Program-made: the position numbers and the translations under genes | Shown here: in pieces, positions 3,810 to 33,674 of the stretch | Layout: every line of letters begins with the position of its first letter | How positions within the stretch are numbered: the first letter of the stretch is position 1 | Notes under the pieces: generated by a model | Told to the model about the DNA's origin: nothing | The model's database searches: none | Seen by the model: only the letters and a program-made list of their open reading frames with translations | From: Alphaproteobacteria bacterium | Lineage (GTDB): Bacteria > Pseudomonadota > Alphaproteobacteria > JAPOUT01 > G958296285 | Length of the DNA stretch: 64,000 nt | NCBI GenBank assembly: GCA_965212075.1 | Contig: OZ243043.1 | Location: 582,763 to 646,762, forward strand | Direction of reading: 5' to 3'

Positions 3810-6128
3810 ATGGCTTTATTATCATCATCTTTGGAGCAAGCGCTGCGTCTTGCGATTGATTATGCGCATCAATATCGCCATGAATATGTGATGCTTGAGC
3901 ATTTGCTGCTCGCGCTGATTGATGAAAAAGACGCGAAGCAAGTTTTTGCGGCCTGCGCCGTTGATGGCGATCAATTGCGCCGCGACATCAAAGATTGGCT
4001 GGAAAAAGAAATCCCGCAAGTGGAAGATGAGAGCAAAGACCATCCGCAGCCGACGATGGGGTTCCAGCGCGTCATTCAGCGGGCGATTTTTCACGTGCAA
4101 GGCGCCGGACGCAGCGAAGTGAACGGCGCGAATGTGCTGGTTGCGCTTTATGCCGAGCGCGAAAGCCACGCCGTGCATTTTTTACAAGAACAGAATATGT
4201 CGCGGCATGATGCGGTATCTTTTATCAGCCATGGGGTCACGAAAGATCAGGCGGTTGACGATATGCAATCTTCTGATCAAGAACAGGGGGAACAGAGCGG
4301 AGAAGAGAAAAAAAGTGAAAGAACGCATAAAGCTCTTGAAAAATGGTGCGTGGACTTAAATAAAAAAGCGGAAGAGGATAAAATTGACCCTCTGATTGGC
4401 CGCCAAAAAGAGGTGCGCCGCACGATTCAAATTTTATGTCGGCGGCGCAAGAACAATCCGATCTATGTCGGTGATCCGGGCGTTGGCAAGACGGCGATTG
4501 CGGAAGGCCTCGCGCGGCGGATCGTCAAGGACGATGTGCCCGATGTGCTGCATGATGCGCGGATTTTCTCTTTAGATATGGGCGCTTTGTTAGGCGGCAC
4601 GCGCTATCGCGGTGATTTTGAGGAGCGGCTCAAGGCTGTGCTCAAAGCTTTGGACAAAACGCCCGGCGCAGTCTTGTTCATTGATGAGATTCATACCGTG
4701 ATCGGCGCGGGCGCAGCAAGCGGCGGCACGATGGACGCTTCCAATTTACTCAAGCCCGCTTTGCAAAACGGCACTTTGCGCTGCATAGGTGCGACGACCT
4801 ATAAAGAATATCGGCGGCATTTTCAAAAAGATCGCGCGCTGACGCGCCGCTTTGAAAAAATAGATGTTGAAGAGCCTAGCATCAGCGAGACGATCAAAAT
4901 CCTCAACGGGCTGAAATCATATTTTGAGGAGTTTCACGCGCTGCGCTATACCTCCCATGCGCTCAAATCGGCGGTGGAGCTGTCGGCGCGCTATATGCAT
5001 GAGCGCAAGCTGCCCGACAAAGCAATCGACGTGATTGACGAAGCTGGCGCTGCGCAGCGCCTTCTGCCCAAGAGCCGCCGCAAGAAGGTGCTCGGCGTCA
5101 AGGATATTGAGGCGATCGTCGCGACGATGGCGCGCATCGCGCCCAAAACCATTTCAAAAGATGCGAGCGCGCAGCTTCATCAATTGCCGGAATCGCTCAA
5201 GCGGGTGGTGTTTGGGCAGGAGCAGGCGATTGAGGCTTTGTCGGCGGCGATCCGCACGGCGCGCGCCGGTCTGCGCGAGGGCGGCAAGCCGGTTGGCAGC
5301 TATCTGTTCTGCGGCCCGACCGGCGTCGGCAAGACTGAAATCGCACGCGCTTTGGCCGAAATTATGGGCGTGGAGATGCTGCGCTTTGACATGTCCGAAT
5401 ATATGGAGCGCCATACGGTTTCGCGGCTGATCGGCGCGCCGCCGGGCTATGTCGGCTTTGATCAGGGCGGGCTGCTGACCGACGGGGTGGATCAGCACCC
5501 TCATTGTGTGCTGCTGCTTGACGAGGTTGAAAAGGCGCATCCCGATATATTCAACATCCTGCTTCAGGTGATGGATCACGGCAAGCTGACCGACCATAAT
5601 GGCCGCAAGACCGATTTCAGCAATGTGATTTTGGTGATGACGACCAATGCGGGCGCGGTTGATATGGCGCGGGCACCCCTAGGCTTTGCGCGAGGCCGCC
5701 GCGAGGGCGACGATAAAGAGGCGATTGAGCGGATGTTCTCGCCGGAGTTCCGCAACCGCCTTGATGCGGTGATCCCGTTTGCGTCTCTGTCGCCGGAGCA
5801 TATCGCGCTTGTCGTCCAGAAATTCATTTACGAGCTGGAAGCGCAGCTGGCCGATCGCCAAGTGATGATTGAGCTTTCCGATGATGCGAACAAATGGATT
5901 GCCGAGCGGGGCTATGACGAAAAAATGGGCGCGCGGCCTCTGGCGCGCGTGATCCAGCAGGAGGTCAAGAAGCCGCTCGCCGACGAGATTTTGTTCGGCA
6001 AGTTAAAGAAGGGCGGCGTCGTGCAGGTTTCGGTTGATCTGTCGGGCAAAAAATTAAAGTTCAAGATTTTGCCTTTAGAAAAAAACTCAAAAAAGCAGGA
6101 ATCTTCAGATGAACCGCAAACATCTTAA
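3810..6128 (+). CDS. clpA: ATP-dependent Clp protease ATP-binding subunit ClpA
   Basis: 772 aa with an N-terminal Clp_N domain and two AAA+ modules (GDPGVGKTAIAEGLA, FCGPTGVGKTEIARALA). It follows clpS as in the conserved clpS-clpA operon. Confidence 0.95.
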   Translation: MALLSSSLEQALRLAIDYAHQYRHEYVMLEHLLLALIDEKDAKQVFAACAVDGDQLRRDIKDWLEKEIPQVEDESKDHPQPTMGFQRVIQRAIFHVQGAGRSEVNGANVLVALYAERESHAVHFLQEQNMSRHDAVSFISHGVTKDQAVDDMQSSDQEQGEQSGEEKKSERTHKALEKWCVDLNKKAEEDKIDPLIGRQKEVRRTIQILCRRRKNNPIYVGDPGVGKTAIAEGLARRIVKDDVPDVLHDARIFSLDMGALLGGTRYRGDFEERLKAVLKALDKTPGAVLFIDEIHTVIGAGAASGGTMDASNLLKPALQNGTLRCIGATTYKEYRRHFQKDRALTRRFEKIDVEEPSISETIKILNGLKSYFEEFHALRYTSHALKSAVELSARYMHERKLPDKAIDVIDEAGAAQRLLPKSRRKKVLGVKDIEAIVATMARIAPKTISKDASAQLHQLPESLKRVVFGQEQAIEALSAAIRTARAGLREGGKPVGSYLFCGPTGVGKTEIARALAEIMGVEMLRFDMSEYMERHTVSRLIGAPPGYVGFDQGGLLTDGVDQHPHCVLLLDEVEKAHPDIFNILLQVMDHGKLTDHNGRKTDFSNVILVMTTNAGAVDMARAPLGFARGRREGDDKEAIERMFSPEFRNRLDAVIPFASLSPEHIALVVQKFIYELEAQLADRQVMIELSDDANKWIAERGYDEKMGARPLARVIQQEVKKPLADEILFGKLKKGGVVQVSVDLSGKKLKFKILPLEKNSKKQESSDEPQTS

Positions 6129-6397
6129 AGTTTAAGCTCTTACTGCACCAGTGATAGAGAAAAGAGGCAGAAAACTGGCTGTATTTTGCTGAATCCAAGT
6201 CATTGATTTTTTCAATTTTTTTTAAAAATGGCCTTGACTCCTTTTACATCACCTATCAAACTACCCCCTATCGCTAAATGTATGGATAACCCTTGTTGGG
6301 TTTCCTACTAAATATAATACCCGGCACAGATCGGGTTTCCCCGTTTTTTCGGGGAATAGGTGGGGCATGATTTTTCCATGCGTTTAGCGATAAAACC

Positions 6398-6422
6398 CGG
6401 CACCTTCGGGTGCCGTTTTTTT
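6398..6422 (+). terminator. Intrinsic-terminator-like hairpin (CGGCACC-TTCG-GGTGCCG followed by T7) inside the leader of the downstream gene
   Basis: A perfect 7-bp GC-rich stem with a TTCG tetraloop is immediately followed by TTTTTTT. It lies 270 bp downstream of the clpA stop and about 20 bp upstream of the probable ATG at 6444. A second hairpin, CCCCG-T6-CGGGG, sits at 6339-6354. Confidence 0.55.
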
Positions 6423-6443
6423 AACGCAAATATGCAGGGGGGA

Positions 6444-7301
6444 ATGATGATGGGTATTCAGAAAACTTTTTTTAACAAGACCTTAGCTGGGTTTCTGGCT
6501 TTAAGTGTGGCACTGGGCACATTTCCGATAGAGGCTTTAGCTGAACACACGGAAACGAGATCTTGCCCAGCGACTATTGCTAGTTTTGGGAGTGGATTTG
6601 ATACTTCCCTAAGCGGCTCCACTCTGACTGCATCGGCGGTGGAGGGTGAAAATAATTGCATTTACGACCGAACTGGTGGCAATTCATTTGCATTGCGTAC
6701 CACCGGCGATACTTATTTAGCGGTTATCAATGGTGGTGTGCATCAAAATGATGACGGGAGTGAGACAACCTTCACGGCTAATTCAGTTGGTGTTGTAACT
6801 GCGCAATCCACTCCGAGAAGTAGTAGCAGTAGTAGCGGCAGCAGCAGCAGTTCCGGTGCCGTTGTCGGCGGGATCGTTGGTGGACTCGCCGGATTAGGGC
6901 TTTTGATTTGGTGGTGGGCAGCTTCCGGCGATGATGAAGACTCACAACTCATCCAATTCCATGACTTAGGGGCAAATTCTTATTTGCCCGCAAGGTCCTG
7001 GTTGGGCGTAGAACATGCCATCACAGACAATGCCAAATTTGCTCTCGGCACTTTCTGGCTGTCGGATGGCTCGGTCAATACGATTATTCCGTCCGTGGAT
7101 AATTCGGGTGTGGATGTTCGCTTGTCTTTGGCGACACGCATCGGCGAGGTTTCCTTCAGTGGGGCTGCTTATAATCATGGCGGGGCCTCACTAGATTATA
7201 ACAATAGCAGCATTGAAAACATCTTTGCTAATACGCTTGAATCCAGCGCTAACTCTGAAGTTGGCTATGCGGTCGGTTTGAACTGGCGCATGTCGTTTTA
7301 A
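6444..7301 (+). CDS. Hypothetical secreted/membrane protein with Ser-rich linker
   Basis: ATG at 6444 is preceded by GGGGGGAATG. It has a signal peptide (MMMGIQKTFFNKTLAGFLALSVALGTFPIEALA), a two-Cys N-domain, an SSSSSSGSSSSSG linker, a hydrophobic Gly-rich segment (GAVVGGIVGGLAGLGLLIWWW), and a C-terminal region ending ...GYAVGLNWRMSF with a terminal Phe. GC looks lower than in flanking genes. The ORF-track start at 6360 would place the terminator hairpin inside the CDS. Confidence 0.55.
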   Translation: MMMGIQKTFFNKTLAGFLALSVALGTFPIEALAEHTETRSCPATIASFGSGFDTSLSGSTLTASAVEGENNCIYDRTGGNSFALRTTGDTYLAVINGGVHQNDDGSETTFTANSVGVVTAQSTPRSSSSSSGSSSSSGAVVGGIVGGLAGLGLLIWWWAASGDDEDSQLIQFHDLGANSYLPARSWLGVEHAITDNAKFALGTFWLSDGSVNTIIPSVDNSGVDVRLSLATRIGEVSFSGAAYNHGGASLDYNNSSIENIFANTLESSANSEVGYAVGLNWRMSF

Positions 7302-7318: not shown

Positions 7319-8533
7319 TTAAATCGGATGAACCGCATGATCTCCCTTGATGTTGCCCAGCTTGCGGCGCGGTGAGGGCGGCGCTTGGCTCTCGGCATAG
7401 CCCATGCGGAACGCAAATGTTGGCTGCATCCGATTTTTCACGAGCTTCCTTAATTGGCGATCCATGCGCGCGGGCTTGTTGAGCATGCGCTCGCGATCAA
7501 CAATTTCTACGGTCTGGTTGATCGGGTGCATCGCGATGCCGCGCTCAGTCGCCATCAGATGAAGCCTTTGCCATAATTGTCCGGCGGCGAGCGAGTTCTT
7601 GACCGTCCAGCGTGTGCGCACCGCAATAATGCCGGCCAGCGGCGCTGTCGCAAGATGAACATTGCGCGTTGCATCAGCCCAAGCTTGATGGCTGTCTTCA
7701 GACGACAAAGCAGGCAGCATTTTTGCCGCCATCAAAATCATCGGCGAAAGTCCGGCGGTGTCCAGCGTGACGCCATCGCGATGGCGTTCAATTTCTTCCG
7801 GCGAGCCGCGAAACCAATGATGGCTCGCGGCCACCATATCTTCATCGTGGATAATTGTTTCTGTCGCCTGATTGGTCAATTTGTCAAAAAGCTCGCGTGA
7901 GCGGCCTTCATCAAAAAAAGATAAAGAGATACTCACAGCGCGCGCAGCGGTTTGAAACAAATTAACGATATCGCCAGGGATCGGCCTGTCGCGCAGATAG
8001 GCACCGCGATTTGTGTGGCGCTGTCCGATGGCCTGATAGAGCGCGCTGCGTGTCGGCTGTGCGCGCGTGAGCGTCAATGTCGCGATGAGCTTTTGTTCGG
8101 GGTTTTGAGGAATCGCGTTCAATCTGCCGCCCGTCAGATTGACCTCAGCCCTCCAGCCATGAGCAGGCGCGGCAAGCAGCATATTCTCAATCGCGCAGCC
8201 CAGCCCGATATGCATTTCGCGCAAATAGGGGTCAAACGCGCCGAGATTGCGGCGCTGGTCGGCATAAAGGCGGATGATTTTCTGCTCCGCGCTTTCATCC
8301 ACTTCAAAAACCCAAGGCTGCGTGTTATGAGGATTGGCCGCGAGCATGCCGGCGATCGCAATGGCTGTCGGCGTCCCCTGATATTGCGGATCGTCCCAAA
8401 GCGTCCATAATTTCCACGGATCGCCCTGCGCGACCGAAAAGGCATCGCGGCGCACACCGTGCCAGACGAACCCGCCAAGCGCGACGAACAAAGTTCCGCC
8501 GCCATATTTCAGCAGATCGCGCCGCGAGATCAT
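7319..8533 (-). CDS. Tat-signal (twin-arginine) exported protein, putatively nitroreductase-like
   Basis: The N-terminus MISRRDLLKYGGGTLFVALGGFVW is a classic RRxLLK Tat motif followed by an h-region. The body has nitroreductase-like segments (IGQRHTNRGAY; C-terminal ...GQLWQRLHLMATERGIAMHPI). The family assignment is weak. Confidence 0.55.
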   Translation of the reverse strand: MISRRDLLKYGGGTLFVALGGFVWHGVRRDAFSVAQGDPWKLWTLWDDPQYQGTPTAIAIAGMLAANPHNTQPWVFEVDESAEQKIIRLYADQRRNLGAFDPYLREMHIGLGCAIENMLLAAPAHGWRAEVNLTGGRLNAIPQNPEQKLIATLTLTRAQPTRSALYQAIGQRHTNRGAYLRDRPIPGDIVNLFQTAARAVSISLSFFDEGRSRELFDKLTNQATETIIHDEDMVAASHHWFRGSPEEIERHRDGVTLDTAGLSPMILMAAKMLPALSSEDSHQAWADATRNVHLATAPLAGIIAVRTRWTVKNSLAAGQLWQRLHLMATERGIAMHPINQTVEIVDRERMLNKPARMDRQLRKLVKNRMQPTFAFRMGYAESQAPPSPRRKLGNIKGDHAVHPI

Positions 8534-10176
8534 TTGGGGGGAATCTTCCAGATATTGGCGAATTCATCGGAGGAGAAATAGATCGCGCCGTCTTTGCCGA
8601 CGGCAAGCCCTGTCGGCAGCACAGTCGGGATGGGGCCGTCGGGCAGGCCGTTGATCGGCAGATTGTCGGCGATGACCTCGCGCTCGCCATTTTTGTCAAC
8701 GGCGATGATCCGTCTGAGTTTCGTTTCAGCGATGATGAATCGTCCATCCTTAAGCCGTGCTAGACCTTCGGCACCCTGCAGTCCCTGCGCGATAATTTTT
8801 TTGGCGCGTGTTTTAAGATTAAAGCTGATTAATCGGCCAGCGATATTTTCAATCAAAAACAAAGTTTGCTGGTCTTGGCTCAGCAGCAGAGTCGCCGGTC
8901 CGGCAAAACCGGTGGCGATTTTTTTCTTCTTTTCCCATTTTTTACCGCTCAATTTCAGCAGCGCGCCTTTGGCAAATTCGGCGATGAGCAGCTCGCCATT
9001 ATCCAAAATGACGGCATCATGCGGCGTCGTAAAACCATGGAGCAGAGCAAGTGATTTTTTTGTTTTGCGATCGAGCACTTGCACCGATCCCGCCGACCAG
9101 CCGGTCAGCGCGATATACTTGTCATTGACGGCGATATGCATCGGATAGTCAATTTCGCTGCCGAAGACGCGGCCAATATCGGTGACCTCGCCGCTCGTGG
9201 GATTCACCATGCGCGTGGCGAACACATCGGCGACATAAAGCACCTCTTTGCCGTTTTCGTGCCAGATCGCGACATCGCCTGCCGCAGCCAGCGCGCCGGA
9301 AATGATGGTAGTCGCTTTGCCGGTTTTTTTGTCAATTTCAATGATCGCATTGTCAGCCATATTGGAAATGAACAGCCGCCCGTCAGGATGAAAGGCGAGG
9401 TTGTCAATAGAGGGTTTGACTCTTGCGACGATGGTTTTCTTGCCGGACTTGCGATCAACGCGCACGACATGGCCGAGCGCGGTGTCCACCGCAAACAGAT
9501 CGCCGCTTTGCGGATCAATGTTGACCGCCGCCGGAACCTTGAATCCTCTGGCGATCGTTTTGATTTTAGCCTTTTCAAGATCCACTTGGACAATCTCGCC
9601 TTTGAACCAGAGCGGGCCGTAGAGCTTGCCGTCTTTGTCAATTTCAAAGCCATTCAAGCCGCCCATTTTTTCCATGATCTTGCGCGGTTTCTTTTTGCCG
9701 GAGACGTCAATTTCATAAAGCGCGTCACCGAGAAAGACTTGCGTGGCATAGAGCCGTCCGTCGGGGGCGAAGTCAAGCGAATTGAGGCCGGGCAGACCTT
9801 CGGCGACCGCGCGGATCGTGCCGCCCGTCTGTTCGCCATTTTTGATGCGCACGGGGTCTTTGACGTAGATTTTTCCTTCCAAGAACGCCGTCCAAGCAAT
9901 CATGCCGTCTTCGGCAAAAGCGATATCATCAGCTTGGCCGCGGGTCGGCGGAATGAAGGTTTTGCTTGTGCCGCTTCTGATGTCAATCTCGTAGGTCTGC
10001 GACCCCAAAACCGATCCGGCGAGCAAGCGGCCTTGATTATCAAAGCCCAGCCCGTGAATGCCGTGAAAGGGCGATTTCGGAGTCACTTCCTCAGGGCTGC
10101 CGCAGGCGGCTAGAGAGCCGAAAGCGGCTAAGACGCAGCAGATCATCAGCGCAAAATGTTTTCTATCTCTTTTCAT
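8530..10176 (-). CDS. Beta-propeller (NHL/SMP-30-like repeat) lipoprotein
   Basis: Lipoprotein signal with lipobox (MKRDRKHFALMICCVLAAFGSLAACGS). Repeated ~40-aa blades with DG(R/K)LY, LYVAD and DGAIYFS motifs. The start ATGA overlaps the HIT stop and the stop overlaps the downstream Tat-protein start, giving a coupled operon. Confidence 0.6.
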   Translation of the reverse strand: MKRDRKHFALMICCVLAAFGSLAACGSPEEVTPKSPFHGIHGLGFDNQGRLLAGSVLGSQTYEIDIRSGTSKTFIPPTRGQADDIAFAEDGMIAWTAFLEGKIYVKDPVRIKNGEQTGGTIRAVAEGLPGLNSLDFAPDGRLYATQVFLGDALYEIDVSGKKKPRKIMEKMGGLNGFEIDKDGKLYGPLWFKGEIVQVDLEKAKIKTIARGFKVPAAVNIDPQSGDLFAVDTALGHVVRVDRKSGKKTIVARVKPSIDNLAFHPDGRLFISNMADNAIIEIDKKTGKATTIISGALAAAGDVAIWHENGKEVLYVADVFATRMVNPTSGEVTDIGRVFGSEIDYPMHIAVNDKYIALTGWSAGSVQVLDRKTKKSLALLHGFTTPHDAVILDNGELLIAEFAKGALLKLSGKKWEKKKKIATGFAGPATLLLSQDQQTLFLIENIAGRLISFNLKTRAKKIIAQGLQGAEGLARLKDGRFIIAETKLRRIIAVDKNGEREVIADNLPINGLPDGPIPTVLPTGLAVGKDGAIYFSSDEFANIWKIPPK

Positions 10177-10616
10177 AAATCCTCCAATGCCGCCTTGATT
10201 TGCGCGGCGTGTTTTTTGAGTTCGTCCATGTCGGCTGTTTTGCGTCCGTGCAGCGGCAGATCGGATAAAGAGGCTGGCGCATTCGGGTCATGGCGCGGAA
10301 TGATATGAAAATGAATATGAAACACGGTCTGGCCGGCGGGGGCGCCATTGAGCTGGGCGACCACGATGCCTGCGCAATCAAAGGCTTTCTTGACGGCGCG
10401 CGCGACTTTTTGAGTCATGCGGATCGTCGCGGCGGCATAATCAGGATCAAGAGAGAGCAAATCTTCTGCCGGTGATTTCGGGATCACAAGCACATGGCCG
10501 GGCGCTTGCGGCATGATGTCCATAAAGACGAATGTATGCTCATCCTGCGCGACTTCAATGCAAGGCATCTCGCCGCGCAATATCTTGGCAAAAATATTAT
10601 CTTTATCGTAAGCCAT
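10173..10616 (-). CDS. HIT-family (histidine triad) nucleotide hydrolase
   Basis: A histidine triad HIHFHIIPRH and an N-terminal NIFAKILRGEMPC...FMDIMPQAPGHVLVIPK match HinT-like proteins. Confidence 0.85.
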   Translation of the reverse strand: MAYDKDNIFAKILRGEMPCIEVAQDEHTFVFMDIMPQAPGHVLVIPKSPAEDLLSLDPDYAAATIRMTQKVARAVKKAFDCAGIVVAQLNGAPAGQTVFHIHFHIIPRHDPNAPASLSDLPLHGRKTADMDELKKHAAQIKAALEDL

Positions 10617-10649: not shown

Positions 10650-11768
10650 TCATGCTTTATGGAAAGGGGTAGCGGTGCGCAGAGCGGCGATTTGCGCGTC
10701 AATGGCGCAGCTTTCATCGGCGAGATAATCGCTGACGGCGCGCGCCAATCCCGCATGGGCGATTTTATGCGCCGAATAAGTTTTGACCGGCTCATAGCCG
10801 CGCTCTATTTTATGCGGCCCTTGCGCGCCCGCTTCAACATAAGCGAGATCGTGGGCTAAGGCATAATCTATCGCTTGGTAGTAGCTGAGCTCAAAATGCA
10901 AGAAGGGCTTATATTCACGGCAGCCCCAATAGCGTCCGTAGAGGCGGTCGGCACCGATGAAATTCAAAGCGCCCGCGATCGGACGGCCAGCTTCCTCGGC
11001 GATGATGAGTAAAATGCGATCAGCAAGCTGCTCACCGAAGAGGCTAAAACATTCGCGCGTCAAATAAGGATGACCCCATTTTCTCATGCCGGTATCGGTA
11101 TAAAATTCAAAAAACATATCCCAGATATTTTCGGTCAGATCGGAGCCGGTCAATTGTTTGATCGTCAGGCCTTTTTGCGCCGCGGCGCGCTCTTTGCGCA
11201 GAGCTTTGCGGCGGCGCGAGGTGAGGTTGGCCAAAAACGCCTCAAAGTCGCCATAATTTTTGTTATGCCAGTGAAATTGAATGCCGGTGCGCGAGAGCAT
11301 ATTGTTTTTGCACATGGATGACCACTGGCCAGCGTCAGGAAAATTTATATGAAGCGACGAAGCTTTGAACTGATTCATCACTTCAATCGCAGCGCCGATC
11401 ATCGTCGGATAATGTTCGGGCGCAGCCAAAAGGCGCAAGCCCGTCACCGGCGTGAAGGGCACACAAGAAACAAGCTTGGGATAATAATCATGACCGGCGC
11501 GCTCAAGCGCATCAGCCCAAGCGTGGTCAAAGATATATTCACCTTGGCTGTGGCTTTTGAGGTAAAGCGGCATCGCGCCGGTAATTTTATCTTCATCTTT
11601 GAGAATGAGATGACAAGGCTGCCATCCTGTCTGCGGTGCCACCGAGCGTGAGGCCTCAAGTGCATAAAGAAACGCGTGCGAGAGAAAAGGATCGCTGCCA
11701 GCTAATTGATCCCATTGATCGGCGGCGATTTTATCAAGCCCGCTGATGACTTGGATATTTGCGGTCAT
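10650..11768 (-). CDS. GNAT/FemAB-like N-acyltransferase family protein (COG3146/DUF482 type)
   Basis: About 370 aa. The N-terminus MTANIQVISGLDKIAADQWDQLAGSDPFLSHAFLYALEAS resembles the conserved alphaproteobacterial FemAB-like family. ATG at 11768 is preferred over the TTG at 11789 used by the ORF track. Confidence 0.6.
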   Translation of the reverse strand: MTANIQVISGLDKIAADQWDQLAGSDPFLSHAFLYALEASRSVAPQTGWQPCHLILKDEDKITGAMPLYLKSHSQGEYIFDHAWADALERAGHDYYPKLVSCVPFTPVTGLRLLAAPEHYPTMIGAAIEVMNQFKASSLHINFPDAGQWSSMCKNNMLSRTGIQFHWHNKNYGDFEAFLANLTSRRRKALRKERAAAQKGLTIKQLTGSDLTENIWDMFFEFYTDTGMRKWGHPYLTRECFSLFGEQLADRILLIIAEEAGRPIAGALNFIGADRLYGRYWGCREYKPFLHFELSYYQAIDYALAHDLAYVEAGAQGPHKIERGYEPVKTYSAHKIAHAGLARAVSDYLADESCAIDAQIAALRTATPFHKA

Positions 11769-11785
11769 GATTTTTTCACTAGATT

Positions 11786-12265
11786 TCAAAACTTAATTTC
11801 AAATAGGGCCTCAATTTCCACAGCGGCGCGGCGCGGCAAAGATGAGACGCCGACCGCAAAGCGCGTATGGCGTCCGCGCGCTCCCATCACCGCGATCAGC
11901 AAATCCGACGCGCCATTGATCACTTCAGGATGATTGCCAAAATCAGACGCCGCATTGACGAAGCCGCCAAGGCGCAGACAGCTCTTCACGCGATCAAGGT
12001 CGCCTGCGCAGGCTTGCTTCAATTGCGCGAGCACATGCAGCGCGCATATCTTTGCCGCATGCGCGCCTTCTTTTTCGGTCAGCGTGTTGCCAATCACACC
12101 TTGAATGATCCGGCCATTTTCAACGGGAACTTGTCCGGAAATGAATACGCAATGTTCGCTAATTGTCCTTTCACTGGCAATCCAAGGCCGATAAGAACCA
12201 GCACTGGGCAGCGGCTCTGGCAGAGCCAATCCCATTTCTTTGAGTTTTGTTTCTATTTGATTCAT
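11786..12265 (-). CDS. ridA: RidA/YjgF family reactive-intermediate deaminase
   Basis: 159 aa with an endoribonuclease L-PSP-like fold signature (...RFAVGVSSLPRRAAVEIEALFEI) and typical length and composition. Confidence 0.8.
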   Translation of the reverse strand: MNQIETKLKEMGLALPEPLPSAGSYRPWIASERTISEHCVFISGQVPVENGRIIQGVIGNTLTEKEGAHAAKICALHVLAQLKQACAGDLDRVKSCLRLGGFVNAASDFGNHPEVINGASDLLIAVMGARGRHTRFAVGVSSLPRRAAVEIEALFEIKF

Positions 12266-12395
12266 CTTTTTATGCTCCTGTTGGTTTATTATACGCCTGT
12301 TGACTCGGGGCAGATTCTACGAAAATATAGAGGCTGCGTATAGATCGGCAGGAGGCGCGGTCATAAAGACCATTAGGCATTTGGAGACCATCAGG

Positions 12396-12932
12396 ATGGC
12401 CAAAAAGAAAAAGACAGTTAGGAAAAAGGCGGCTAAAAAAAAGGCGGTTAAGAGAAAAACAATAAAGAAAAAGACGATAAAGAGAAAGACAGTAAAGAGA
12501 AAAGCTGCAAAAAAGAAAACTGTAAAAAAGACCGCAAAACGTCAAAAATCGGCGAAGACACAAGACGCCCAATCTTCCGATGACGCAGCATCTTTGGCGG
12601 GTCGCCGCCGTGCCTTAAGAAGAAGACGGCGGACTTTGCGCATGAAAAAAGCCGGCACGTCAATCACTGATGTGGGCATGGTTGCAGGCACGGCGAGCCG
12701 TTCAACATTGTTGACGCGCACGCGGATCATTCGCAAGCGCGAGGATATCGGCATTTTGCCGATTGACAAAAATGTGATGATTAAGGAGCTGATTCAAGCT
12801 GGTAGCATTACTAAGCTAGCGACGCGTTTTGGCGTCACAAAGCAGGCGATTGGCTCATGGTTTGGGCGGCGTGGATTGCAGGCAGTTGATGTCGCTGGTG
12901 AACATGCGACGCATAAAAAAGAAATAATGTAG
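12396..12932 (+). CDS. Lysine-rich histone H1-like DNA-binding protein with C-terminal HTH-like region
   Basis: ATG at 12396 is preceded by AGGA. The N-terminus MAKKKKTVRKKAAKKKAVKRKTIKKKTIKRKTVKRKAAKKKTVKKTAKRQ has degenerate (K)KKT[VI]KRK repeats, and the C-terminus has an HTH-like segment ITKLATRFGVTKQAIGSWF. The long ORF-track start at 12300 has no SD. Confidence 0.6.
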   Translation: MAKKKKTVRKKAAKKKAVKRKTIKKKTIKRKTVKRKAAKKKTVKKTAKRQKSAKTQDAQSSDDAASLAGRRRALRRRRRTLRMKKAGTSITDVGMVAGTASRSTLLTRTRIIRKREDIGILPIDKNVMIKELIQAGSITKLATRFGVTKQAIGSWFGRRGLQAVDVAGEHATHKKEIM

Positions 12933-14173
12933 TGAGCGCGCGCGTTTTTCTGACAGATTCATTTCGTGATAGCCCTTTTGTTGATTCTCTATGCGAGTTT
13001 TTAGGCGAGTCTTTGGATGCAGCGTTGTTTGATCTATGGCTGGGCGGCGACGCCAAAGAGGCGCAGCCCGACATTATCGTGACGACTCCGCGCGAAGAAT
13101 CTGAAAGCTTGTCTCGCTTGGGCGCACCGATCATTTGCTTGTCTGACCAGCCGACCGGCCAATGGGCGGACGGCGTGGAGGATGTCATTCATCCGCATGA
13201 TTTTGGCCTGTTGATTGCCTCACTGCGCGTGCTGCACCAGCAGCGACAGATTGCGCGTCTGCTGGATTCTTATGCCGATATGGCGCATAAGAATTTGCTG
13301 CAAAAGGCTGCGCTCATGCCGGAATTTTCTTCTGCTTCTGGCAAGGTGCTGGTCTATGCGGATCAAGAAGATGTTGATGCGCTTTCGGCGGCTCTTGACG
13401 GCCAGCATGACATCTACCAAAACGAGCTGGACAGGCCTGACTCTATCCCCGATCTGATCATCGTCAAAGATGACATGAATGTTTTTGTGCAGCTATCCGC
13501 ACAGCCTGACCGAGAAATTCCGGTGATGTTTTGGTCTGCGGATCGGATAAAAATTATCCGCGCGCTCAACGCCGATGCTTCCGGCTATATGATGGCTCTC
13601 TCTTCTTGTGTGCCGCGCATTGAGCGGCAAATTCAAAATAGCCGCCGCCGCGCGCGCTTGAAGCAGGATTTGGGCTTGACGTTTGATCTGGCAGTCAGAG
13701 ATGAGCTGACCGGTCTTTATAATCGCCGTTTTATGATCGCGCATTTGCCGGAAGTGATCAAAAATGTGATGAAGCAGGAAAAAAAGCGCCTTGCGGTGCT
13801 TCTGCTTGATATTGATCGCTTCAAGAATATCAATGATTATTGGGGGCATGATACAGGCGATGCGATTTTGCGGCGTGCTGCGGCTTTGTTTGCTGAAGTC
13901 TTGCGCAAGGATGATGAAATCTATCGGATTGGCGGCGAGGAATTTCTTGCGGTTCTGCCGAATGTCGGCATGAAGGAGGCCTATGCGATCGCGCAGCGTC
14001 TATGCGCGCTGATTGACGATACGCACTTTGTTGTCGGCGAGGCGGTCGTGCCGGTCACGATCTCAGCGGGCGTTGGCCTATTCCAGCCCGGAGAGCGCGT
14101 GCAAAATCTTCTCAAGCGCGCCGATGAGGCTTTATATCGGGCCAAGAATCTCGGTCGCAATCAAGCGGCTTAG
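12932..14173 (+). CDS. GGDEF diguanylate cyclase with N-terminal degenerate receiver-like domains (PleD-like architecture)
   Basis: C-terminal GGDEF domain: GLYNRRF...[21 protein letters not shown]...RIGGEEF. The active site is GGEEF and an RxxD I-site (RKDD) lies 5 aa upstream. A GTG start overlaps the upstream stop as TAGTG. Confidence 0.85.
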
Positions 14174-18054: not shown

Positions 18055-20826
18055 GTGGCGCGTAAGAATGGGATAATTGAAGATATGCCCTCTTCAGAAA
18101 GCGGCATCACGCCGGTTTTCATTGAAGAGGAGATGAAGCGCTCTTACCTTGACTATGCGATGAGCGTGATTGTGTCGCGTGCTTTGCCGGATGTCCGTGA
18201 TGGGCTGAAGCCGGTGCAGCGCCGAATTCTCTATGCGATGTTGGAGAGCGGTTATTTATGGAATCGCCCGCATCGCAAATCGGCGCGTGTTGTCGGCGAT
18301 GTGATGGGTAAATATCATCCGCACGGTGATCAATCTATCTATGACGCGCTGGCGCGCATGGCGCAGGATTTTTCGCTGCGCCTTATGCTGCTTGACGGAC
18401 ACGGCAATTTTGGATCGCTGGACGGCGATCTGCCCGCAGCGATGCGCTATACTGAAGTGCGGCTGGCGGCGATCGCACAATATCTTCTGAACGACATTGA
18501 TAAAAACACGGTCAACTTCCGCGCCAATTATGATGAAAGCGAGCGCGAGCCGGAAGTGCTGCCTGCTTTGCTGCCAAATTTGCTGATTAACGGCGCGGGT
18601 GGAATCGCTGTCGGCATGGCGACCAACATTCCGCCGCATAATCCCGCTGAAATCATTGACGCCGCACTGGCGATGATTGACAAGCCCGATATCACCGACG
18701 CGCCGCTTGCCAAAATCGTCAAAGGGCCGGATTTTCCAACCGGCGGAATCATTCTCGGCCAGATCGGAATCAAATCAGCCTATAAAACAGGCCGCGGATC
18801 CATCGCTTTGCGCGCAAAGGTTGAAATTGAAAAAATGACCCGCGATCGCGAAGCGATCATCGTCACGGAAACTCCCTATCAGGTCAATAAATCCACGATG
18901 ATTCAAAAAATCGCCGACCTCGTGCGCACAAATAAAATAGAAGGCATATCCAATCTGCGCGACGAATCTGACCGCCAAGGTGTGCGCGTCGTCATTGAAA
19001 TTCGCCGCGATAGTCAAGCTGATATTGTCCTCAACCAGCTTTGGCGCAATACGCCTTTGCAGGTGAGCTTCGGCGTCAACATGCTGGCGCTGGTGGGCGG
19101 CCAGCCTATGATGTTGACGCTCAAAAGTTATATCGCCGAATTTCTCAGATTCCGCGAAGAGGTCATTTCACGCCGCACACGCTTTGAATTGGCAAAGGCG
19201 CGTGATCGCGCGCATATTTTGGCCGGCCTGTCCATTGCGGTCGCTAATATAGATAAAATCATTGAGCTTATCCGCAAAGCGCGCGACGCTCATGCCGCGC
19301 GTGAACAATTGATGAAGCGCAAATGGCCCGCCAAAAATGTGCGCGATATTTTGAAAATCATCAACGATATGCGCTACCAGATCAGCAAAGACGGCATGTA
19401 TAAATTATCTGAAATCCAAGCGCGCGCGATTTTGGATTTGCGCCTGAACCGCTTGACCGCGCTCGGACGCGAGGAAATCGCCGCCGAAATGGCAGAGCTG
19501 CAAAAGAAAATCACCGAATATCTTGGCATTCTCGGCGATCGCAAAAAGCTTTACGCGATCCTGCGCGCCGAGCTGGCCGCGCTGCGCAGCAAGGTCAACG
19601 CGCCGCGCCGCACAAAGATTGAGCAGGAAGAAGCAGGCTCCATTGAGGAGGATGATCTCGTGCAAAGTGAGGAGGCGGTGGTGACGGTCAGCCATAGGGG
19701 CTATATCAAGCGCGCGCCGCTTGCGTCATGGCGCGCGCAGCAGCATGGCGGCAAGGGGCGCGCCGGCATGCTGGTCAAGGATGCCGATTTTGCCGCGCGC
19801 ATTTTTTTGACCAATACGCGCGACCGGATTTTGTTCTTTTCATCTTTGGGCAAAGTCTACCAGATGAAGGCGTGGCGCTTGCCGCAAGGTCTGCCGCGCA
19901 CGCGCGGCAAAGCGATGGTCAACCTTCTGCCGCTGGGCAAGACCGAGCAAATCACGACGGTGATGCCGATATCTGCGCACAAGACGCCCAGCGAGGAGCG
20001 CTTCGTGATCTTTGCGACGCGCAACGGCTATGTGCGCCGCAACCGGCTTGATGATTTCGTCAACATCAACCGCGCTGGAAAAATTGCGATGAAGCTTGAA
20101 CGCGGCGATCGGATCGTTTCTGTGGGCATCTGCCATGCGGGCGATGATGTTTTGCTGACAACGCGCGAAGGCATGTGTGTGCGTTTTCCGATTGATGAGG
20201 TGCGGGTTTTTACGAGTCGGCTGTCATCGGGTGTGCGCGGCATGAGCTTGGGCGCGGGCGATGAAGTGATTTCCATGAGTTTGATGGCGCATGTGGAAGC
20301 TTCGCCCGATGAGCGCACGGCCTATCTGCGCCGCGCCGCCGCCGAGCGCCGCGGCGATGGCGATGGCGAAGAGGGCGATCAAGAAGACGAAGAAAAAACG
20401 ATTGCGCTGAGTGATAAGCGCTATCAAAAGATGAAGAAAGAAGAGGAATTTGTGTTGACGATCGCGGCGGGCGGCTATGGCAAGCGCTCATCGTCTTACA
20501 GCTATCGCACGACGAAGCGCGGCGGCAAGGGTTTGGTGGCGATGAAAATCGGCACTCGTAACGGAGATTTGATCGCGTCGTTTCCTGTCAAAAACGAGGA
20601 TCAAATCATGCTGATCACTGAAGAGGGGCAGGCGATCCGCTGCCCTGTCAATAGAGTGCGGGTCGCAGGCCGGACAACGCAGGGGGTGAAAATTTTTGAT
20701 ACAAAGGATAAAGTTGTTTCAGCGGCGCGCATTGAAGAGGCCAGTGAAACGGTGATTGGCAATGGGGCAGGCGATGAGATAGGCAATGAGACAGAAAATG
20801 AGACAGGCAATGGAGCAGCGACATGA
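18055..20826 (+). CDS. gyrA: DNA gyrase subunit A
   Basis: [34 protein letters not shown], the QRDR region [17 protein letters not shown], and 923 aa. A GTG start follows AAGGAG. An acidic insertion and a Gly/Asn/Glu-rich C-terminal tail are present. Confidence 0.95.
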
Positions 20827-21308
20827 AGCGAATTGGCTTATATACCGGCAGCTTTGATCCCATGACGGTGGGGCATATGGATATTATGTCGCGCGCGCTC
20901 CGGCTGGTGGATGAGCTGATTGTCGGCGTCGGGCGCAACTCAACCAAAGCCACGATGATGGCTCCTGATGTTCGCCGCAATCTGATTGAACGGGTCGCTG
21001 CACAAGAATTGAAGACGAATAAAATTAAAGCAGCTTTGTTTAACGGTCTCACGGTGGATTTTGCCAAAAAGCACGGGGTCAGTGTAATCATCAGGGGTTT
21101 GCGCAACAGTTCGGATATGGATTTTGAAGCCGGCATGGCCGGAATGAATCACATGATGAATGGCGATATTGAAACGATGTTTTTGCTGGCACGGCCTGAA
21201 TATTCAGCGATTTCGGCGACATTGGTGCGACAAGTCCATCAGATGGGCGGAGATATATCGCAATTTGTGCCAAAGTCTATTTTTGAATCGATGAAGAGTA
21301 GCCATTAA
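20823..21308 (+). CDS. coaD: Phosphopantetheine adenylyltransferase
   Basis: [25 protein letters not shown] has the T/HxGH nucleotidyltransferase motif. The ATGA start overlaps the gyrA stop. Confidence 0.93.
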   Translation: MKRIGLYTGSFDPMTVGHMDIMSRALRLVDELIVGVGRNSTKATMMAPDVRRNLIERVAAQELKTNKIKAALFNGLTVDFAKKHGVSVIIRGLRNSSDMDFEAGMAGMNHMMNGDIETMFLLARPEYSAISATLVRQVHQMGGDISQFVPKSIFESMKSSH

Positions 21309-33589: not shown

Positions 33590-33674
33590 GCGGTCGTGGC
33601 GGAATTGGTAGACGCGCAGCGTTGAGGGCGCTGTGGGGCAACCCGTGGAAGTTCGAGTCTTCTCGACCGCACCA
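33590..33674 (+). tRNA. tRNA-Leu (anticodon GAG)
   Basis: Cloverleaf folded by hand. Acceptor GCGGTCG/CGACCGC, 3-bp D-stem with an 11-nt D-loop, anticodon stem CAGCG/CGCTG, loop UUGAGGG (U33, anticodon GAG), long variable arm GGGG/CCC, T-arm GGAAG-TTCGAGT-CTTCT, discriminator A, encoded CCA. Confidence 0.9.

What the first reader, a model, noticed from the sequence alone, without database searches (positions are those of the whole stretch)
7319..10616. Translationally coupled three-gene operon: HIT hydrolase, beta-propeller lipoprotein and Tat-exported nitroreductase-like protein
On the minus strand the three ORFs overlap by ATGA at both junctions (10176/10173 and 8533/8530), implying one transcript and coupled translation. 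The products would be compartmentalised differently. The HIT nucleotide hydrolase is cytoplasmic. The 548-aa NHL/SMP-30-like beta-propeller lipoprotein is lipid-anchored in the periplasm or outer membrane. The third protein carries a twin-arginine signal, so it is exported folded and possibly cofactor-loaded, and has weak nitroreductase/FMN-like motifs. I do not recognise this combination as a described system. It could be a periplasmic detoxification or redox module, or a nucleotide-derived small-molecule processing pathway.
Basis: partly seen in the sequence, partly recalled or inferred. Interest (0 to 1): 0.55.

Follow-up and report, generated by a model that had tools for sequence, protein, structure and literature searches.

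The report
Compact operon, not a three-protein system
The three overlapping genes are real and correctly identified, but they are the tail of an ordinary five-gene operon in a compact genome, and this trio occurs together only in one narrow bacterial lineage.

Summary
Three minus-strand ORFs (10616-10173, 10176-8530, 8533-7319) overlap by ATGA at both junctions. They encode a Hint-type HIT hydrolase, a lipoprotein made of two six-bladed beta-propellers, and an Acg-family FMN protein with a Tat-like N-terminus.

The "three-gene system" reading is not supported:
- **The unit is larger.** A RidA-like gene and a PF04339 FemAB-like gene lie directly upstream on the same strand (TTGA overlap, then a 33-nt gap), so this looks like a five-gene operon.
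- **Four-base overlaps are routine here.** They occur in 12 of 44 same-strand ORF pairs in the window.
- **The conserved block excludes Acg.** RidA–FemAB-like–HIT–propeller, beside clpSA, recurs in Parvibaculaceae-like Alphaproteobacteria. HIT lies upstream of the propeller in 20 of 66 related loci.
- **Acg is a local addition.** It follows the propeller only in the window's close relatives: 1 of 61 propeller loci, and 1 of 79 other distinct Acg loci.
- **Acg has a different usual neighbour.** Elsewhere it most often sits just downstream of a TetR-family regulator (29 of 76 loci).

The Acg gene is therefore best read as a lineage-specific addition to an inherited operon. The mildly interesting part is the widespread, uncharacterised, apparently Tat-targeted branch of the Acg family.

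The parts
11786..12265 (-). RidA/YjgF-like gene (159 aa), probable first gene of the operon
   Evidence: Pfam YjgF_endoribonc 3.3e-22. An AGGAG ribosome-binding site lies upstream. It is conserved at this position in relatives.
10650..11789 (-). FemAB-like GNAT-fold gene (PF04339, 379 aa). Its TTG start overlaps the RidA stop (TTGA).
   Evidence: Pfam FemAB_like 1.5e-149. Sequence read. The same 4-nt overlap is called in L001 and L085.
10173..10616 (-). Hint-type HIT hydrolase (147 aa). It has no signal peptide. The His triad HIHFHII is at 10319-10299.
   Evidence: Pfam HIT 7.9e-27. Motif located. GGGAGG lies 6 nt before the ATG.
8530..10176 (-). Exported lipoprotein (548 aa) made of two tandem six-bladed beta-propellers: an N-terminal SGL-like half (strongly conserved) and a C-terminal NHL-like half
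10102..10176 (-). Lipoprotein signal peptide: n-region KRDRK, lipobox LAAC, Cys25
   Evidence: The closest homologues (P0122-P0131) also carry lipoboxes. More distant ones have Sec-type signals.
7319..8533 (-). Acg-family (FDO subgroup of the nitroreductase superfamily) putative FMN protein, 404 aa
   Evidence: NF047509 206 bits against cutoff 199. The only PDB sequence hit is MsAcg 2ymv, 5e-12. AF2 pLDDT 84.7. Foldseek top hit is 2ymv, E 1.3e-12, TM 0.77. The HNTQPW (res 69-74) and RHTNR (res 172-176) motifs are shared with MsAcg.
8426..8533 (-). Tat-like N-terminal signal or anchor (residues 1-36): SRRDLLK, a Gly/Ala-rich h-region, and a possible SVA/Q cleavage site
   Evidence: R4 and R5 are invariant in 26 aligned homologues. 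117 of 120 homologues have RR in the first 40 residues. TIGR01409 and PF10518 are the top hits but fall below cutoff for the window's own sequence. In the AF2 model this segment is a detached low-confidence helix.
10173..10176 (-). ATGA overlap between the HIT stop and the propeller start
8530..8533 (-). ATGA overlap between the propeller stop and the Acg start. It is preceded by a C6 run and only a weak GGAAG, so termination-reinitiation coupling is likely.
   Evidence: The same 4-nt overlap is called in L001 and L082.

Best explanation
The three genes are the distal part of a probable five-gene operon (12265 to 7319, minus strand) in a small-genome alphaproteobacterium (contig about 1.6 Mb).

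The genes, in order:
- a RidA-like gene;
- a PF04339 FemAB-like GNAT gene;
- a Hint-type HIT hydrolase;
- an exported tandem beta-propeller lipoprotein;
- a Tat-type Acg-family flavoprotein.

The first four genes form a block inherited across Parvibaculaceae-like Alphaproteobacteria, next to clpS-clpA. The Acg gene, together with the convergent 313-aa ORF at 6360-7301, is found only in the window's own clade, in the variable slot between the propeller gene and clpA.

In other bacteria the Acg gene usually stands alone or follows its own TetR-family regulator. Here it has no such regulator. It is probably expressed by read-through and translational coupling from the propeller gene.

The 4-nt overlaps reflect genome compaction. 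They do not point to a dedicated three-protein mechanism.

Inferred individual roles:
- HIT is a cytoplasmic nucleoside-phosphoramidate or acyl-adenylate hydrolase.
- The propeller is a lipid-anchored protein outside the cytoplasm. Its N-terminal SGL-like half probably carries a metal-dependent hydrolase or lactonase-type site. This rests on invariant H38/H41, D83/D84, N132, N175, N219 and D258/N259 at the inner strands of the six blades.
- The Acg-like protein is a monomeric FMN protein with a lid. It is folded with its cofactor in the cytoplasm and moved by Tat to the periplasmic side, either soluble or N-terminally anchored. There it acts as a small-molecule oxidoreductase or flavin-holding protein without NAD(P)H.

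Shown here: gene identities, overlaps, folds (predicted) and neighbourhood statistics.
Inferred: co-transcription, export routes, cofactor and chemistry.
For: - Gene map and overlaps.
- Family assignments.
- Same five-gene order in the 76-80% identical relatives L001/L002 and L082.
- RidA-FemAB-like-HIT-(DsbA)-propeller without Acg in relatives L083, L084, L085/L086, L087 (P. lavamentivorans protein P0182, found on a Logan assembly) and L089 (46-68% propeller identity).
- Metagenome scan anchored on the propeller: HIT upstream in 20 of 66 loci, RidA and FemAB-like in 19 of 50, Acg in 1 of 61.
- Genome scan anchored on Acg: the propeller is present in only one other distinct locus of 79, the sister genome.
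- A TetR-family gene lies directly upstream on the same strand in 29 of 76 eligible Acg loci from several classes. No TetR homologue was found in the window.
- 12 of 44 same-strand ORF pairs in the window overlap by 4 nt.
- There is no GC anomaly across 7-12 kb.
- No convincing internal promoter or terminator was found.
Against: - The propeller/Acg 4-nt overlap is kept in all three genomes of the clade. Both products are predicted to be extracytoplasmic, so a lineage-specific functional link cannot be excluded.
- Co-transcription is inferred only. There are no expression data.
- The window's own N-terminus scores below the curated Tat-signal cutoffs.
- The neighbourhood samples are dominated by MAGs and short contigs. 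The 80 best loci per scan are biased toward a few lineages.
Confidence: 0.7

Rival explanations
1. The propeller lipoprotein and the Tat-exported Acg flavoprotein form a real periplasmic two-enzyme module in this lineage. For example, the propeller might hydrolyse or open the ring of a lactone-like or aromatic compound, and the flavoprotein might then oxidise or reduce it. HIT would be co-expressed incidentally.
For: - Both proteins are predicted to be extracytoplasmic.
- The 4-nt stop/start overlap is conserved in the window, L001 and L082.
- The Acg start has only a weak ribosome-binding site, so its translation probably depends on the propeller gene.
- The N-terminal propeller has an enzyme-like invariant central ring of polar residues.
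Against: - The linkage is confined to genomes with at least 76% identity, which amounts to one evolutionary event.
- Both families have Parvibaculum members, yet none of the many Parvibaculum Acg loci has a propeller within 8 kb.
- Acg's recurrent partner elsewhere is a TetR regulator, not a propeller.
- The slot downstream of the propeller holds unrelated genes in other relatives.
Confidence: 0.15
2. All five genes encode one small-molecule pathway analogous to the Oxz/Tyz oxazolone clusters. A GNAT-fold acyl- or aminoacyl-transferase (FemAB-like) would make an N-acylated amino acid. HIT and RidA would handle adenylated or imine intermediates. The Acg-subgroup flavoenzyme would oxidise the product.
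For: - Characterised members of the FDO subgroup (OxzB, TyzC) are oxidases. They work with an N-acyltransferase and a ThiF-type adenylating cyclase (PMC10404671).
- The window protein also hits the Rv1355c family model weakly: 71 bits, 6e-20.
- The operon contains a GNAT-fold transferase and an AMP-ester hydrolase.
Against: - There is no ThiF gene in the locus.
- The Acg protein is predicted to be exported, whereas the transferase, HIT and RidA are cytoplasmic.
- RidA/FemAB-like/HIT is conserved in many genomes without any adjacent Acg.
- The protein falls in the Acg model rather than the ThiF-linked models.
Confidence: 0.05
3. The N-terminus of the Acg-like protein is not a Tat export signal. 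It would be a conserved N-terminal membrane anchor or structural segment, and the flavoprotein would remain on the cytoplasmic side like the mycobacterial Acg proteins.
For: - The window's sequence is below the curated cutoffs of TIGR01409 (13.0 against 16.7) and PF10518 (17.4 against 22.7).
- There is no conserved AxA cleavage site.
- Positions after the hydrophobic stretch (W24, R25, F32, G37) are conserved, which is unusual for a cleaved signal.
Against: - The RR pair is invariant, and the consensus is S/T-R-R-x-[FL]-L.
- The Tat-signal models are the top hit for all six N-termini tested, and three homologues exceed the TIGR01409 cutoff.
- The h-region is Gly/Ala-rich and of moderate hydrophobicity, with basic residues after it, as in Tat signals.
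- The segment is an extra roughly 45 residues relative to MsAcg and is detached from the fold in the model.
- An uncleaved Tat-inserted anchor of the Rieske type would reconcile both sets of facts (own knowledge).
Confidence: 0.15

Closest known systems
Mycobacterial Acg proteins (Rv2032/Acg, Rv3127, Rv3131; MsAcg structure 2YMV), FDO subgroup of the nitroreductase superfamily
   Same: - It passes the NCBIfam Acg-family model.
- Its only solved relative by sequence, and its best structural match, is MsAcg.
- It is a single chain that mimics a nitroreductase dimer.
- It shares the HNTQPW and R-x-T-x-R motifs.
- It has a conserved but flexible lid-like segment at about residues 245-285.
   Different: - It is about 18% identical to MsAcg.
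- It is proteobacterial rather than actinobacterial.
- It carries an extra roughly 45-residue N-terminus with a twin-arginine motif, whereas the mycobacterial proteins are cytoplasmic and DosR-regulated (PMC11841060, PMC13494985).
- Its usual genomic partner is a TetR regulator.
- FMN binding and activity are untested.
OxzB / TyzC oxazolone-forming flavin-dependent oxidases (FDO-A subclusters)
   Same: It belongs to the same nitroreductase subgroup. It gives a weak hit to the Rv1355c family model. A GNAT-fold transferase is encoded in the same operon.
   Different: There is no ThiF domain or neighbouring ThiF gene. The protein is predicted to be exported. It scores much better against the Acg model (PMC10404671).
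SMP-30/gluconolactonase/LRE and NHL six-bladed beta-propellers (for example RPA3624 lactonase, XC5397, DFPase, PknD sensor domain)
   Same: - The Pfam SGL hit is above cutoff.
- The C-half matches PknD/Pizza NHL repeats.
- Conserved polar residues sit at the start of each inner strand of the N-half.
   Different: - It has two propellers in one chain, and it is lipid-anchored.
- It falls below the cutoffs of the ScyE (78.4 against 80) and Vgb lyase (19.2 against 50) models.
- The FHGxHG motif is not one I recognise from the classical E/N/N/D metal site (own knowledge).
- No substrate is known.
Hint-branch HIT proteins (E. coli HinT)
   Same: It has the HIT domain and the His-x-His-x-His-x-x motif.
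   Different: It scores below the equivalog cutoffs for HinT (52 against 206 bits). It has a roughly 35-residue C-terminal tail.
Conserved alphaproteobacterial RidA-like / PF04339 / HIT / propeller gene string beside clpSA
   Same: The window has the same order and orientation as in P. lavamentivorans, Parvibaculaceae PLY_AMNH and several MAGs.
   Different: The window's clade adds the Acg gene and a convergent 313-aa ORF between the propeller and clpA. Some relatives instead insert DsbA between HIT and the propeller.

Membership tests
HIT superfamily (Hint branch) | HIT domain above the Pfam gathering score | tested here: met
   PF01230 94.2 bits against cutoff 21.5
HIT superfamily (Hint branch) | Histidine triad H-x-H-x-H-x-x | tested here: met
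   HIHFHII at residues 100-106
HIT superfamily (Hint branch) | Equivalog-level match to HinT purine nucleoside phosphoramidase | tested here: not met
   PRK10687 52.1 bits against cutoff 206. It is filed only as a HIT-family protein.
Acg family FMN-binding oxidoreductase (NF047509; FDO subgroup) | Score at or above NCBIfam's curated cutoff | tested here: met
   206 bits against 199, residues 61-393. The margin is narrow.
Acg family FMN-binding oxidoreductase (NF047509; FDO subgroup) | Single-chain pseudo-dimeric nitroreductase fold like MsAcg | tested here: met
   AF2 model pLDDT 84.7. Foldseek top hit 2ymv, E 1.3e-12, TM 0.77 on the target. This is a prediction only.
Acg family FMN-binding oxidoreductase (NF047509; FDO subgroup) | Bound FMN under a lid, and no use of NAD(P)H | not testable with these tools
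   The shared HNTQPW and RHTNR motifs and a conserved low-pLDDT segment at 245-285 are consistent with this. Properties of MsAcg are taken from PMC11841060.
Tat (twin-arginine) substrates | S/T-R-R-x-F-L-K motif followed by a moderately hydrophobic h-region | tested here: met
   SRRDLLK. RR is invariant in 26 of 26 aligned homologues and present in 117 of 120. Mean Kyte-Doolittle hydropathy of the h-region is 1.5.
Tat (twin-arginine) substrates | Curated Tat-signal profile above cutoff | tested here: not met
   Window: TIGR01409 13.0 against 16.7, PF10518 17.4 against 22.7. Three of five homologues tested pass TIGR01409. The match is therefore family-level and sub-threshold for this sequence.
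Tat (twin-arginine) substrates | Signal peptidase site (A-x-A) after the h-region | tested here: inconclusive
   SVA/Q is possible in the window but not conserved in homologues. The signal could be an uncleaved anchor.
Tat (twin-arginine) substrates | TatABC present in the genome, and export shown to depend on Tat | not tested
   Only 64 kb of the genome is available. No search for tat genes was made.
Bacterial lipoproteins | Basic n-region, hydrophobic h-region, lipobox [LVI][ASTVI][GAS]C | tested here: met
   MKRDRKHFALMICCVLAAFGSLAAC, with Cys25. Lipoboxes are also present in the closest homologues.
SMP-30/gluconolactonase/LRE-like (PF08450) | Domain score above the gathering cutoff | tested here: met
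   50.1 bits against 26.3, residues 41-216
SMP-30/gluconolactonase/LRE-like (PF08450) | Central divalent-metal ligands of characterised lactonases | tested here: inconclusive
   Invariant H38/H41, D83/D84, N132, N175, N219 and D258/N259 lie at the inner strands of blades 1-6.
ScyD/ScyE family; Vgb lyase family | Score above the curated cutoff | tested here: not met
   ScyE_fam 78.4 against 80. Vgb_lyase 19.2 against 50.
Oxz/Tyz oxazolone biosynthetic clusters | FDO enzyme fused to or adjacent to a ThiF-type adenylating enzyme, plus an N-acyltransferase | tested here: not met
   No ThiF domain is present in the operon or flanks. The definition is from PMC10404671.

The most novel reading that the evidence does not exclude
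Tat-signal-bearing Acg/FDO proteins would be an uncharacterised periplasmic branch of a flavoprotein family known only from the mycobacterial cytoplasm. They are widespread in Proteobacteria and other phyla and are often paired with a TetR regulator. In this reduced-genome lineage, one of them would have been recruited to work with an exported double-propeller hydrolase on a periplasmic small molecule.
Probability: 0.12. Interest if true: 0.55.

Novelty: new member of a known kind. Interest (0 to 1): 0.27.

Why it matters
As a "system", it matters little. The arrangement is one lineage's way of packing unrelated genes, and it cautions against reading function into ATGA overlaps in compact genomes.

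Two by-products are worth keeping:
- **A large uncharacterised Acg branch.** There is a large family of Acg-type flavoproteins with an invariant twin-arginine N-terminus (561 confirmed loci among species-representative genomes). Their common TetR partner suggests a small-molecule-inducible role outside the cytoplasm. The function of Acg itself is still disputed in mycobacteria, so a periplasmic branch without access to NAD(P)H could help decide between "enzyme" and "flavin holder".
- **A conserved uncharacterised gene string.** The RidA-like/PF04339/HIT/double-propeller string beside clpSA is conserved and has no characterised function.

Tried and rejected
- **Exact-sequence look-up of the window's Acg protein.** It found no contig. 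The sister protein P0002 had to be used instead.
- **First neighbour clustering of Acg loci.** It was swamped by spurious high-GC ORFs. It was redone using only immediately flanking ORFs.
- **Rfam and tRNA scans of the window.** They found nothing relevant: no riboswitch or leader near the operon.
- **Promoter and terminator scan.** It gave only consensus-level hits, not clearly above shuffled expectation. No boundaries could be set.
- **Literature searches.** Searches for Tat plus Acg and for PF04339/DUF482 found nothing pertinent. The MsAcg structure paper (PMC3531751) is not held, so its FMN-contact residues could not be mapped.
- **Fold searches of the propeller.** They gave only generic six-bladed matches, with no functional discrimination.
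- **A 929-aa propeller-Acg "fusion" protein, P0247.** It is rejected as evidence of functional fusion. It is 1 of 36 cluster members, lacks the signal peptide, and differs from its unfused cluster-mates (P0249, P0241) by a frame change next to the stop/start overlap. It is most likely an assembly indel.
- **An Oxz/Tyz-like pathway.** It is rejected as the main reading because there is no ThiF gene and the predicted compartments conflict.


Full report
**Observation**

The sequence shows ATGA stop/start overlaps at 10176-10173 and 8533-8530. GGAGG-type ribosome-binding sites precede the HIT and propeller starts. Only a weak GGAAG, followed by a C6 run, precedes the third start.

Two more genes lie on the same strand directly upstream:
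- a PF04339 FemAB-like gene (11789-10650), separated from HIT by 33 nt;
- a RidA/YjgF-like gene (12265-11786), which overlaps the FemAB-like start by TTGA.

A consensus scan found no convincing internal promoter or terminator. GC content is even across the region. The likely unit is therefore a five-gene operon of about 4.95 kb. This is an inference; there are no expression data.

**Are the overlaps special?**

They are not. With a simple longest-ORF map of the whole window, 21 of 44 same-strand neighbour pairs overlap, and 12 of 44 overlap by exactly four bases. One such pair, 18055-20826 and 20823-21308, looks from its N-termini like gyrA followed by coaD (my reading, not tested), which have no known functional link. 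Intergenic gaps are mostly 10-40 nt. The identical protein P0001 sits on a contig of 1.61 Mb, and its relatives sit on contigs of 1.1-1.9 Mb. This is a compact genome in which 4-nt overlaps are routine.

**What the three products are**

*HIT.* Pfam HIT scores 7.9e-27. The His triad HIHFHII is at residues 100-106. There is no signal peptide. The protein is below the equivalog cutoffs for HinT, so it is a generic Hint-branch HIT protein.

*Propeller.*
- Pfam SGL scores 50 bits against a cutoff of 26, with Str_synth and NHL also hit.
- The AlphaFold model is confident (pLDDT 92.9) and has about 50 strands.
- Foldseek's best PDB matches are the tandem propellers of LRP6.
- A PDB profile search shows that the C-terminal half is NHL of the PknD/Pizza type.

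So this is a tandem pair of six-bladed propellers. The N-terminal half is much more conserved: 67 of 267 positions are invariant, against 20 of 252 in the C-half, across 32 homologues. The invariant H38/H41, D83/D84, N132, N175, N219 and D258/N259 each sit at the start of the inner strand of successive blades. That is where SGL/DFPase/PON-type enzymes place their metal site (own knowledge). I infer an enzymatic N-half and a binding C-half, but I could not check the geometry.

The signal peptide has a basic n-region and the lipobox LAAC (Cys25). The nearest homologues also have lipoboxes, while more distant ones have ordinary Sec signals. The family is exported throughout.

*Acg-like protein.*
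- NCBIfam NF047509 (Acg family FMN-binding oxidoreductase) scores 206 bits against a cutoff of 199.
- The only solved relative by sequence is M. smegmatis Acg, 2YMV (5e-12).
- The model (pLDDT 84.7) has 2YMV as its top structural match: E 1.3e-12, TM 0.77 on the target, 18% identity.
- The HNTQPW and R-H-T-N-R motifs are shared with MsAcg.
- A sequence-conserved but low-confidence segment at about 245-285 corresponds to a lid-like insertion.

According to the literature:
- It is a monomer that mimics the usual dimer.
- It binds FMN under a lid.
- It does not use NAD(P)H.
- It has been proposed to be a flavin sequester rather than a nitroreductase (PMC10404671, PMC11841060, PMC13494985).

**Tat targeting**

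Evidence for a Tat signal:
- The N-terminus MISRRDLLKYGGGTLFVALGGFVW matches the S/T-R-R-x-F-L-K pattern.
- R4 and R5 are invariant in 26 aligned homologues.
- 117 of 120 homologues have RR in the first 40 residues, followed by a Gly/Ala-rich h-region of moderate hydrophobicity.
- The Tat-signal profiles are the top hit for all six N-termini tested, and three homologues pass TIGR01409.
- The segment is an extra roughly 45 residues relative to MsAcg, and in the model it is a detached low-confidence helix.

Evidence that weakens it:
- The window's own sequence is below the curated cutoffs: TIGR01409 13.0 against 16.7, PF10518 17.4 against 22.7.
- There is no conserved AxA site.
- Residues just after the hydrophobic stretch are conserved. 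An uncleaved Tat-inserted anchor is as likely as a cleaved signal.

I rate periplasm-facing localisation as likely but unproven. I did not look for the tat genes.

**Is the trio a conserved unit?**

*Anchoring on Acg.* A scan of species-representative genomes found 561 confirmed loci, and the best 80 were fetched. tblastn with the window's proteins found the propeller, the FemAB-like and RidA-like genes, and the 313-aa ORF only in the 76%-identical sister MAG. That MAG appears twice in the set, as L002 and as the earlier-fetched L001. A cognate HIT was also found only there. A cyanobacterial locus, L067, has an unrelated HIT at 38% identity about 4 kb upstream.

*Anchoring on the propeller.* Individual look-ups showed:
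- the full five-gene order in L082 (80% identity);
- RidA-FemAB-like-HIT-propeller without Acg in L083 (68%), the P. lavamentivorans protein's locus L087, and a Parvibaculaceae isolate L089, in L087 and L089 with clpA-clpS just beyond;
- the same string with DsbA inserted between HIT and the propeller in L084 and L085/L086;
- the propeller alone in Bradyrhizobium (L088).

A metagenome scan added 80 more loci. Over all propeller-anchored loci with enough flanking sequence:
- HIT lies upstream on the same strand within 1.5 kb in 20 of 66;
- RidA and FemAB-like lie upstream in 19 of 50;
- Acg is present in 1 of 61, and that one is L082.

The slot downstream of the propeller holds unrelated genes in different relatives:
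- a giant 5753-aa protein;
- restriction-modification genes;
- a glyoxalase;
- small hypothetical proteins.

The conserved unit is therefore the four-gene string. Acg, together with the convergent 313-aa ORF that is also restricted to this clade, is a lineage-specific addition between the propeller and clpA.

**What usually accompanies Tat-type Acg genes?**

Clustering the immediately flanking ORFs of 78 loci showed one recurrent partner: a roughly 220-aa protein directly upstream on the same strand. Pfam identifies it as a TetR-family regulator. A dedicated tblastn found it within 400 nt upstream in 29 of 76 eligible loci. These include loci labelled as:
- Parvibaculum;
- Roseiarcus;
- Marinomonas;
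- Halomonas;
- Hahella;
- Ectothiorhodospiraceae;
- Gemmatimonadaceae.

The other neighbours (an MscS channel, acyl-CoA dehydrogenases) track taxonomy. No TetR homologue is present in the window. By inference, Tat-type Acg is normally a stand-alone, ligand-regulated gene. In this compact lineage it has lost that regulator and rides on the end of a housekeeping-type operon.

**Mechanism, as far as it can be stated**

- *Shown:* gene identities, predicted folds, overlaps and neighbourhood statistics.
- *Inferred, co-transcription:* one transcript runs from upstream of 12265.
- *Inferred, translation:* the Acg gene is translated by termination-reinitiation at the ATGA.
- *Inferred, HIT:* it acts in the cytoplasm on nucleoside phosphoramidates or acyl-adenylates.
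- *Inferred, propeller:* it is lipid-anchored outside the cytoplasm and has a probable metal-dependent hydrolase site.
- *Inferred, Acg:* it folds with FMN in the cytoplasm and is moved by Tat to the periplasmic side. With no NAD(P)H available there, it either oxidises or reduces a small molecule using O2, quinone or cytochrome partners, or it holds flavin.

I see no evidence that the three act on a common substrate.

**Rivals**

- *A lineage-specific propeller + Acg periplasmic module.* This remains possible (about 0.15), because the overlap is kept in all three genomes of the clade and both products are extracytoplasmic. It rests on a single evolutionary event.
- *An Oxz/Tyz-like five-gene pathway.* This is suggested by the known chemistry of the FDO subgroup (PMC10404671). 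It fails on the absence of ThiF, on compartment mismatch, and on conservation of the upstream genes without Acg (about 0.05).
- *A non-exported Acg.* This remains a localisation rival (about 0.15).

**Novelty and verdict**

Each gene belongs to a known family, and NCBI already names such proteins "Acg family FMN-binding oxidoreductase". The arrangement is a new, lineage-restricted instance of ordinary operon packing. The Tat-type Acg branch and the RidA/PF04339/HIT/propeller string are uncharacterised and moderately interesting, but neither is what the finding claimed. Interest is 0.27.

Noticed in passing
Loci L003-L079 (for example L054:7251-7931, just upstream of the Acg homologue at 8001): A TetR-family regulator lies immediately upstream on the same strand as the Tat-type Acg gene in 29 of 76 loci from several bacterial classes. 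It is absent from the window. This is the only recurrent partner of the family.
   Followed up: partly
window 6360-7301 (+): A convergent 313-aa ORF ends 17 nt from the Acg stop. It has no Pfam or NCBIfam hit. It carries a signal-like N-terminus, a poly-Ser linker, a hydrophobic GG-rich segment and a C-terminus ending in ...NWRMSF, which looks like an outer-membrane barrel. Homologues (53-59% identity) occur only in the two genomes that also have the adjacent Acg gene.
   Followed up: partly
window 6398-6415: A GC-rich hairpin with T-runs on both sides looks like a bidirectional terminator downstream of clpA (3810-6128). It lies inside the longest-ORF call of the 313-aa gene, so that gene's real start is probably the ATG cluster near 6440.
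   Followed up: no
Protein P0247 (929 aa; cluster of P0123; relatives of L082): One of 36 cluster members is called as a propeller-Acg fusion (…ANIWKVDRQMISRRDV…). It lacks the signal peptide and differs from its unfused cluster-mates (P0249, P0241) by a frame change at the stop/start overlap, so it is probably an assembly indel. Because of it, the 90% protein cluster mixes 545-aa propellers and 406-aa Acg proteins.
   Followed up: partly
L084:5417-6004 and L085/L086:5395-5976: In more distant relatives a DsbA-family gene is inserted between HIT and the propeller. In L084 it overlaps the propeller start by 4 nt. L084 also has DUF429 and FolB genes between FemAB-like and HIT. The region downstream of HIT seems to collect genes for periplasmic proteins.
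   Followed up: no
L083:7691-13593: In the relative with 68% propeller identity, the position occupied by Acg in the window is taken by the start of a giant ORF of 5753 residues with no Pfam hit on record.
   Followed up: no
window 8530-10176, residues 35-42 of the product: An S-[PA]-F-H-G-[IV]-H-G motif lies within about 10-25 residues after the signal peptide or lipobox Cys. Its F-H-G-x-H-G core is invariant in all 32 aligned homologues. It was specific enough to serve as a search pattern (466 confirmed metagenome loci). It may be a metal-binding or active-site element of the N-terminal propeller.
   Followed up: partly
window 12300-12932 (+) and 12932-14173 (+): Divergent from the operon are a lysine-rich ORF (repeated KKK/TVK motifs, no Pfam hit on record for its counterparts in relatives) and then a 413-aa ORF whose positional counterparts in relatives carry a GGDEF domain. 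The same pair sits in the same position in L001, L082 and L083, so the divergent promoter region (about 12266-12398) is also conserved in layout.
   Followed up: no
window-wide; for example 18055-20826 and 20823-21308: 12 of 44 same-strand ORF pairs overlap by exactly 4 nt. One such pair looks from its N-termini like gyrA followed by coaD (not tested), which have no known functional link. No Rfam family was found in 64 kb, and only one tRNA (Leu-GAG, 33590-33674).
   Followed up: yes
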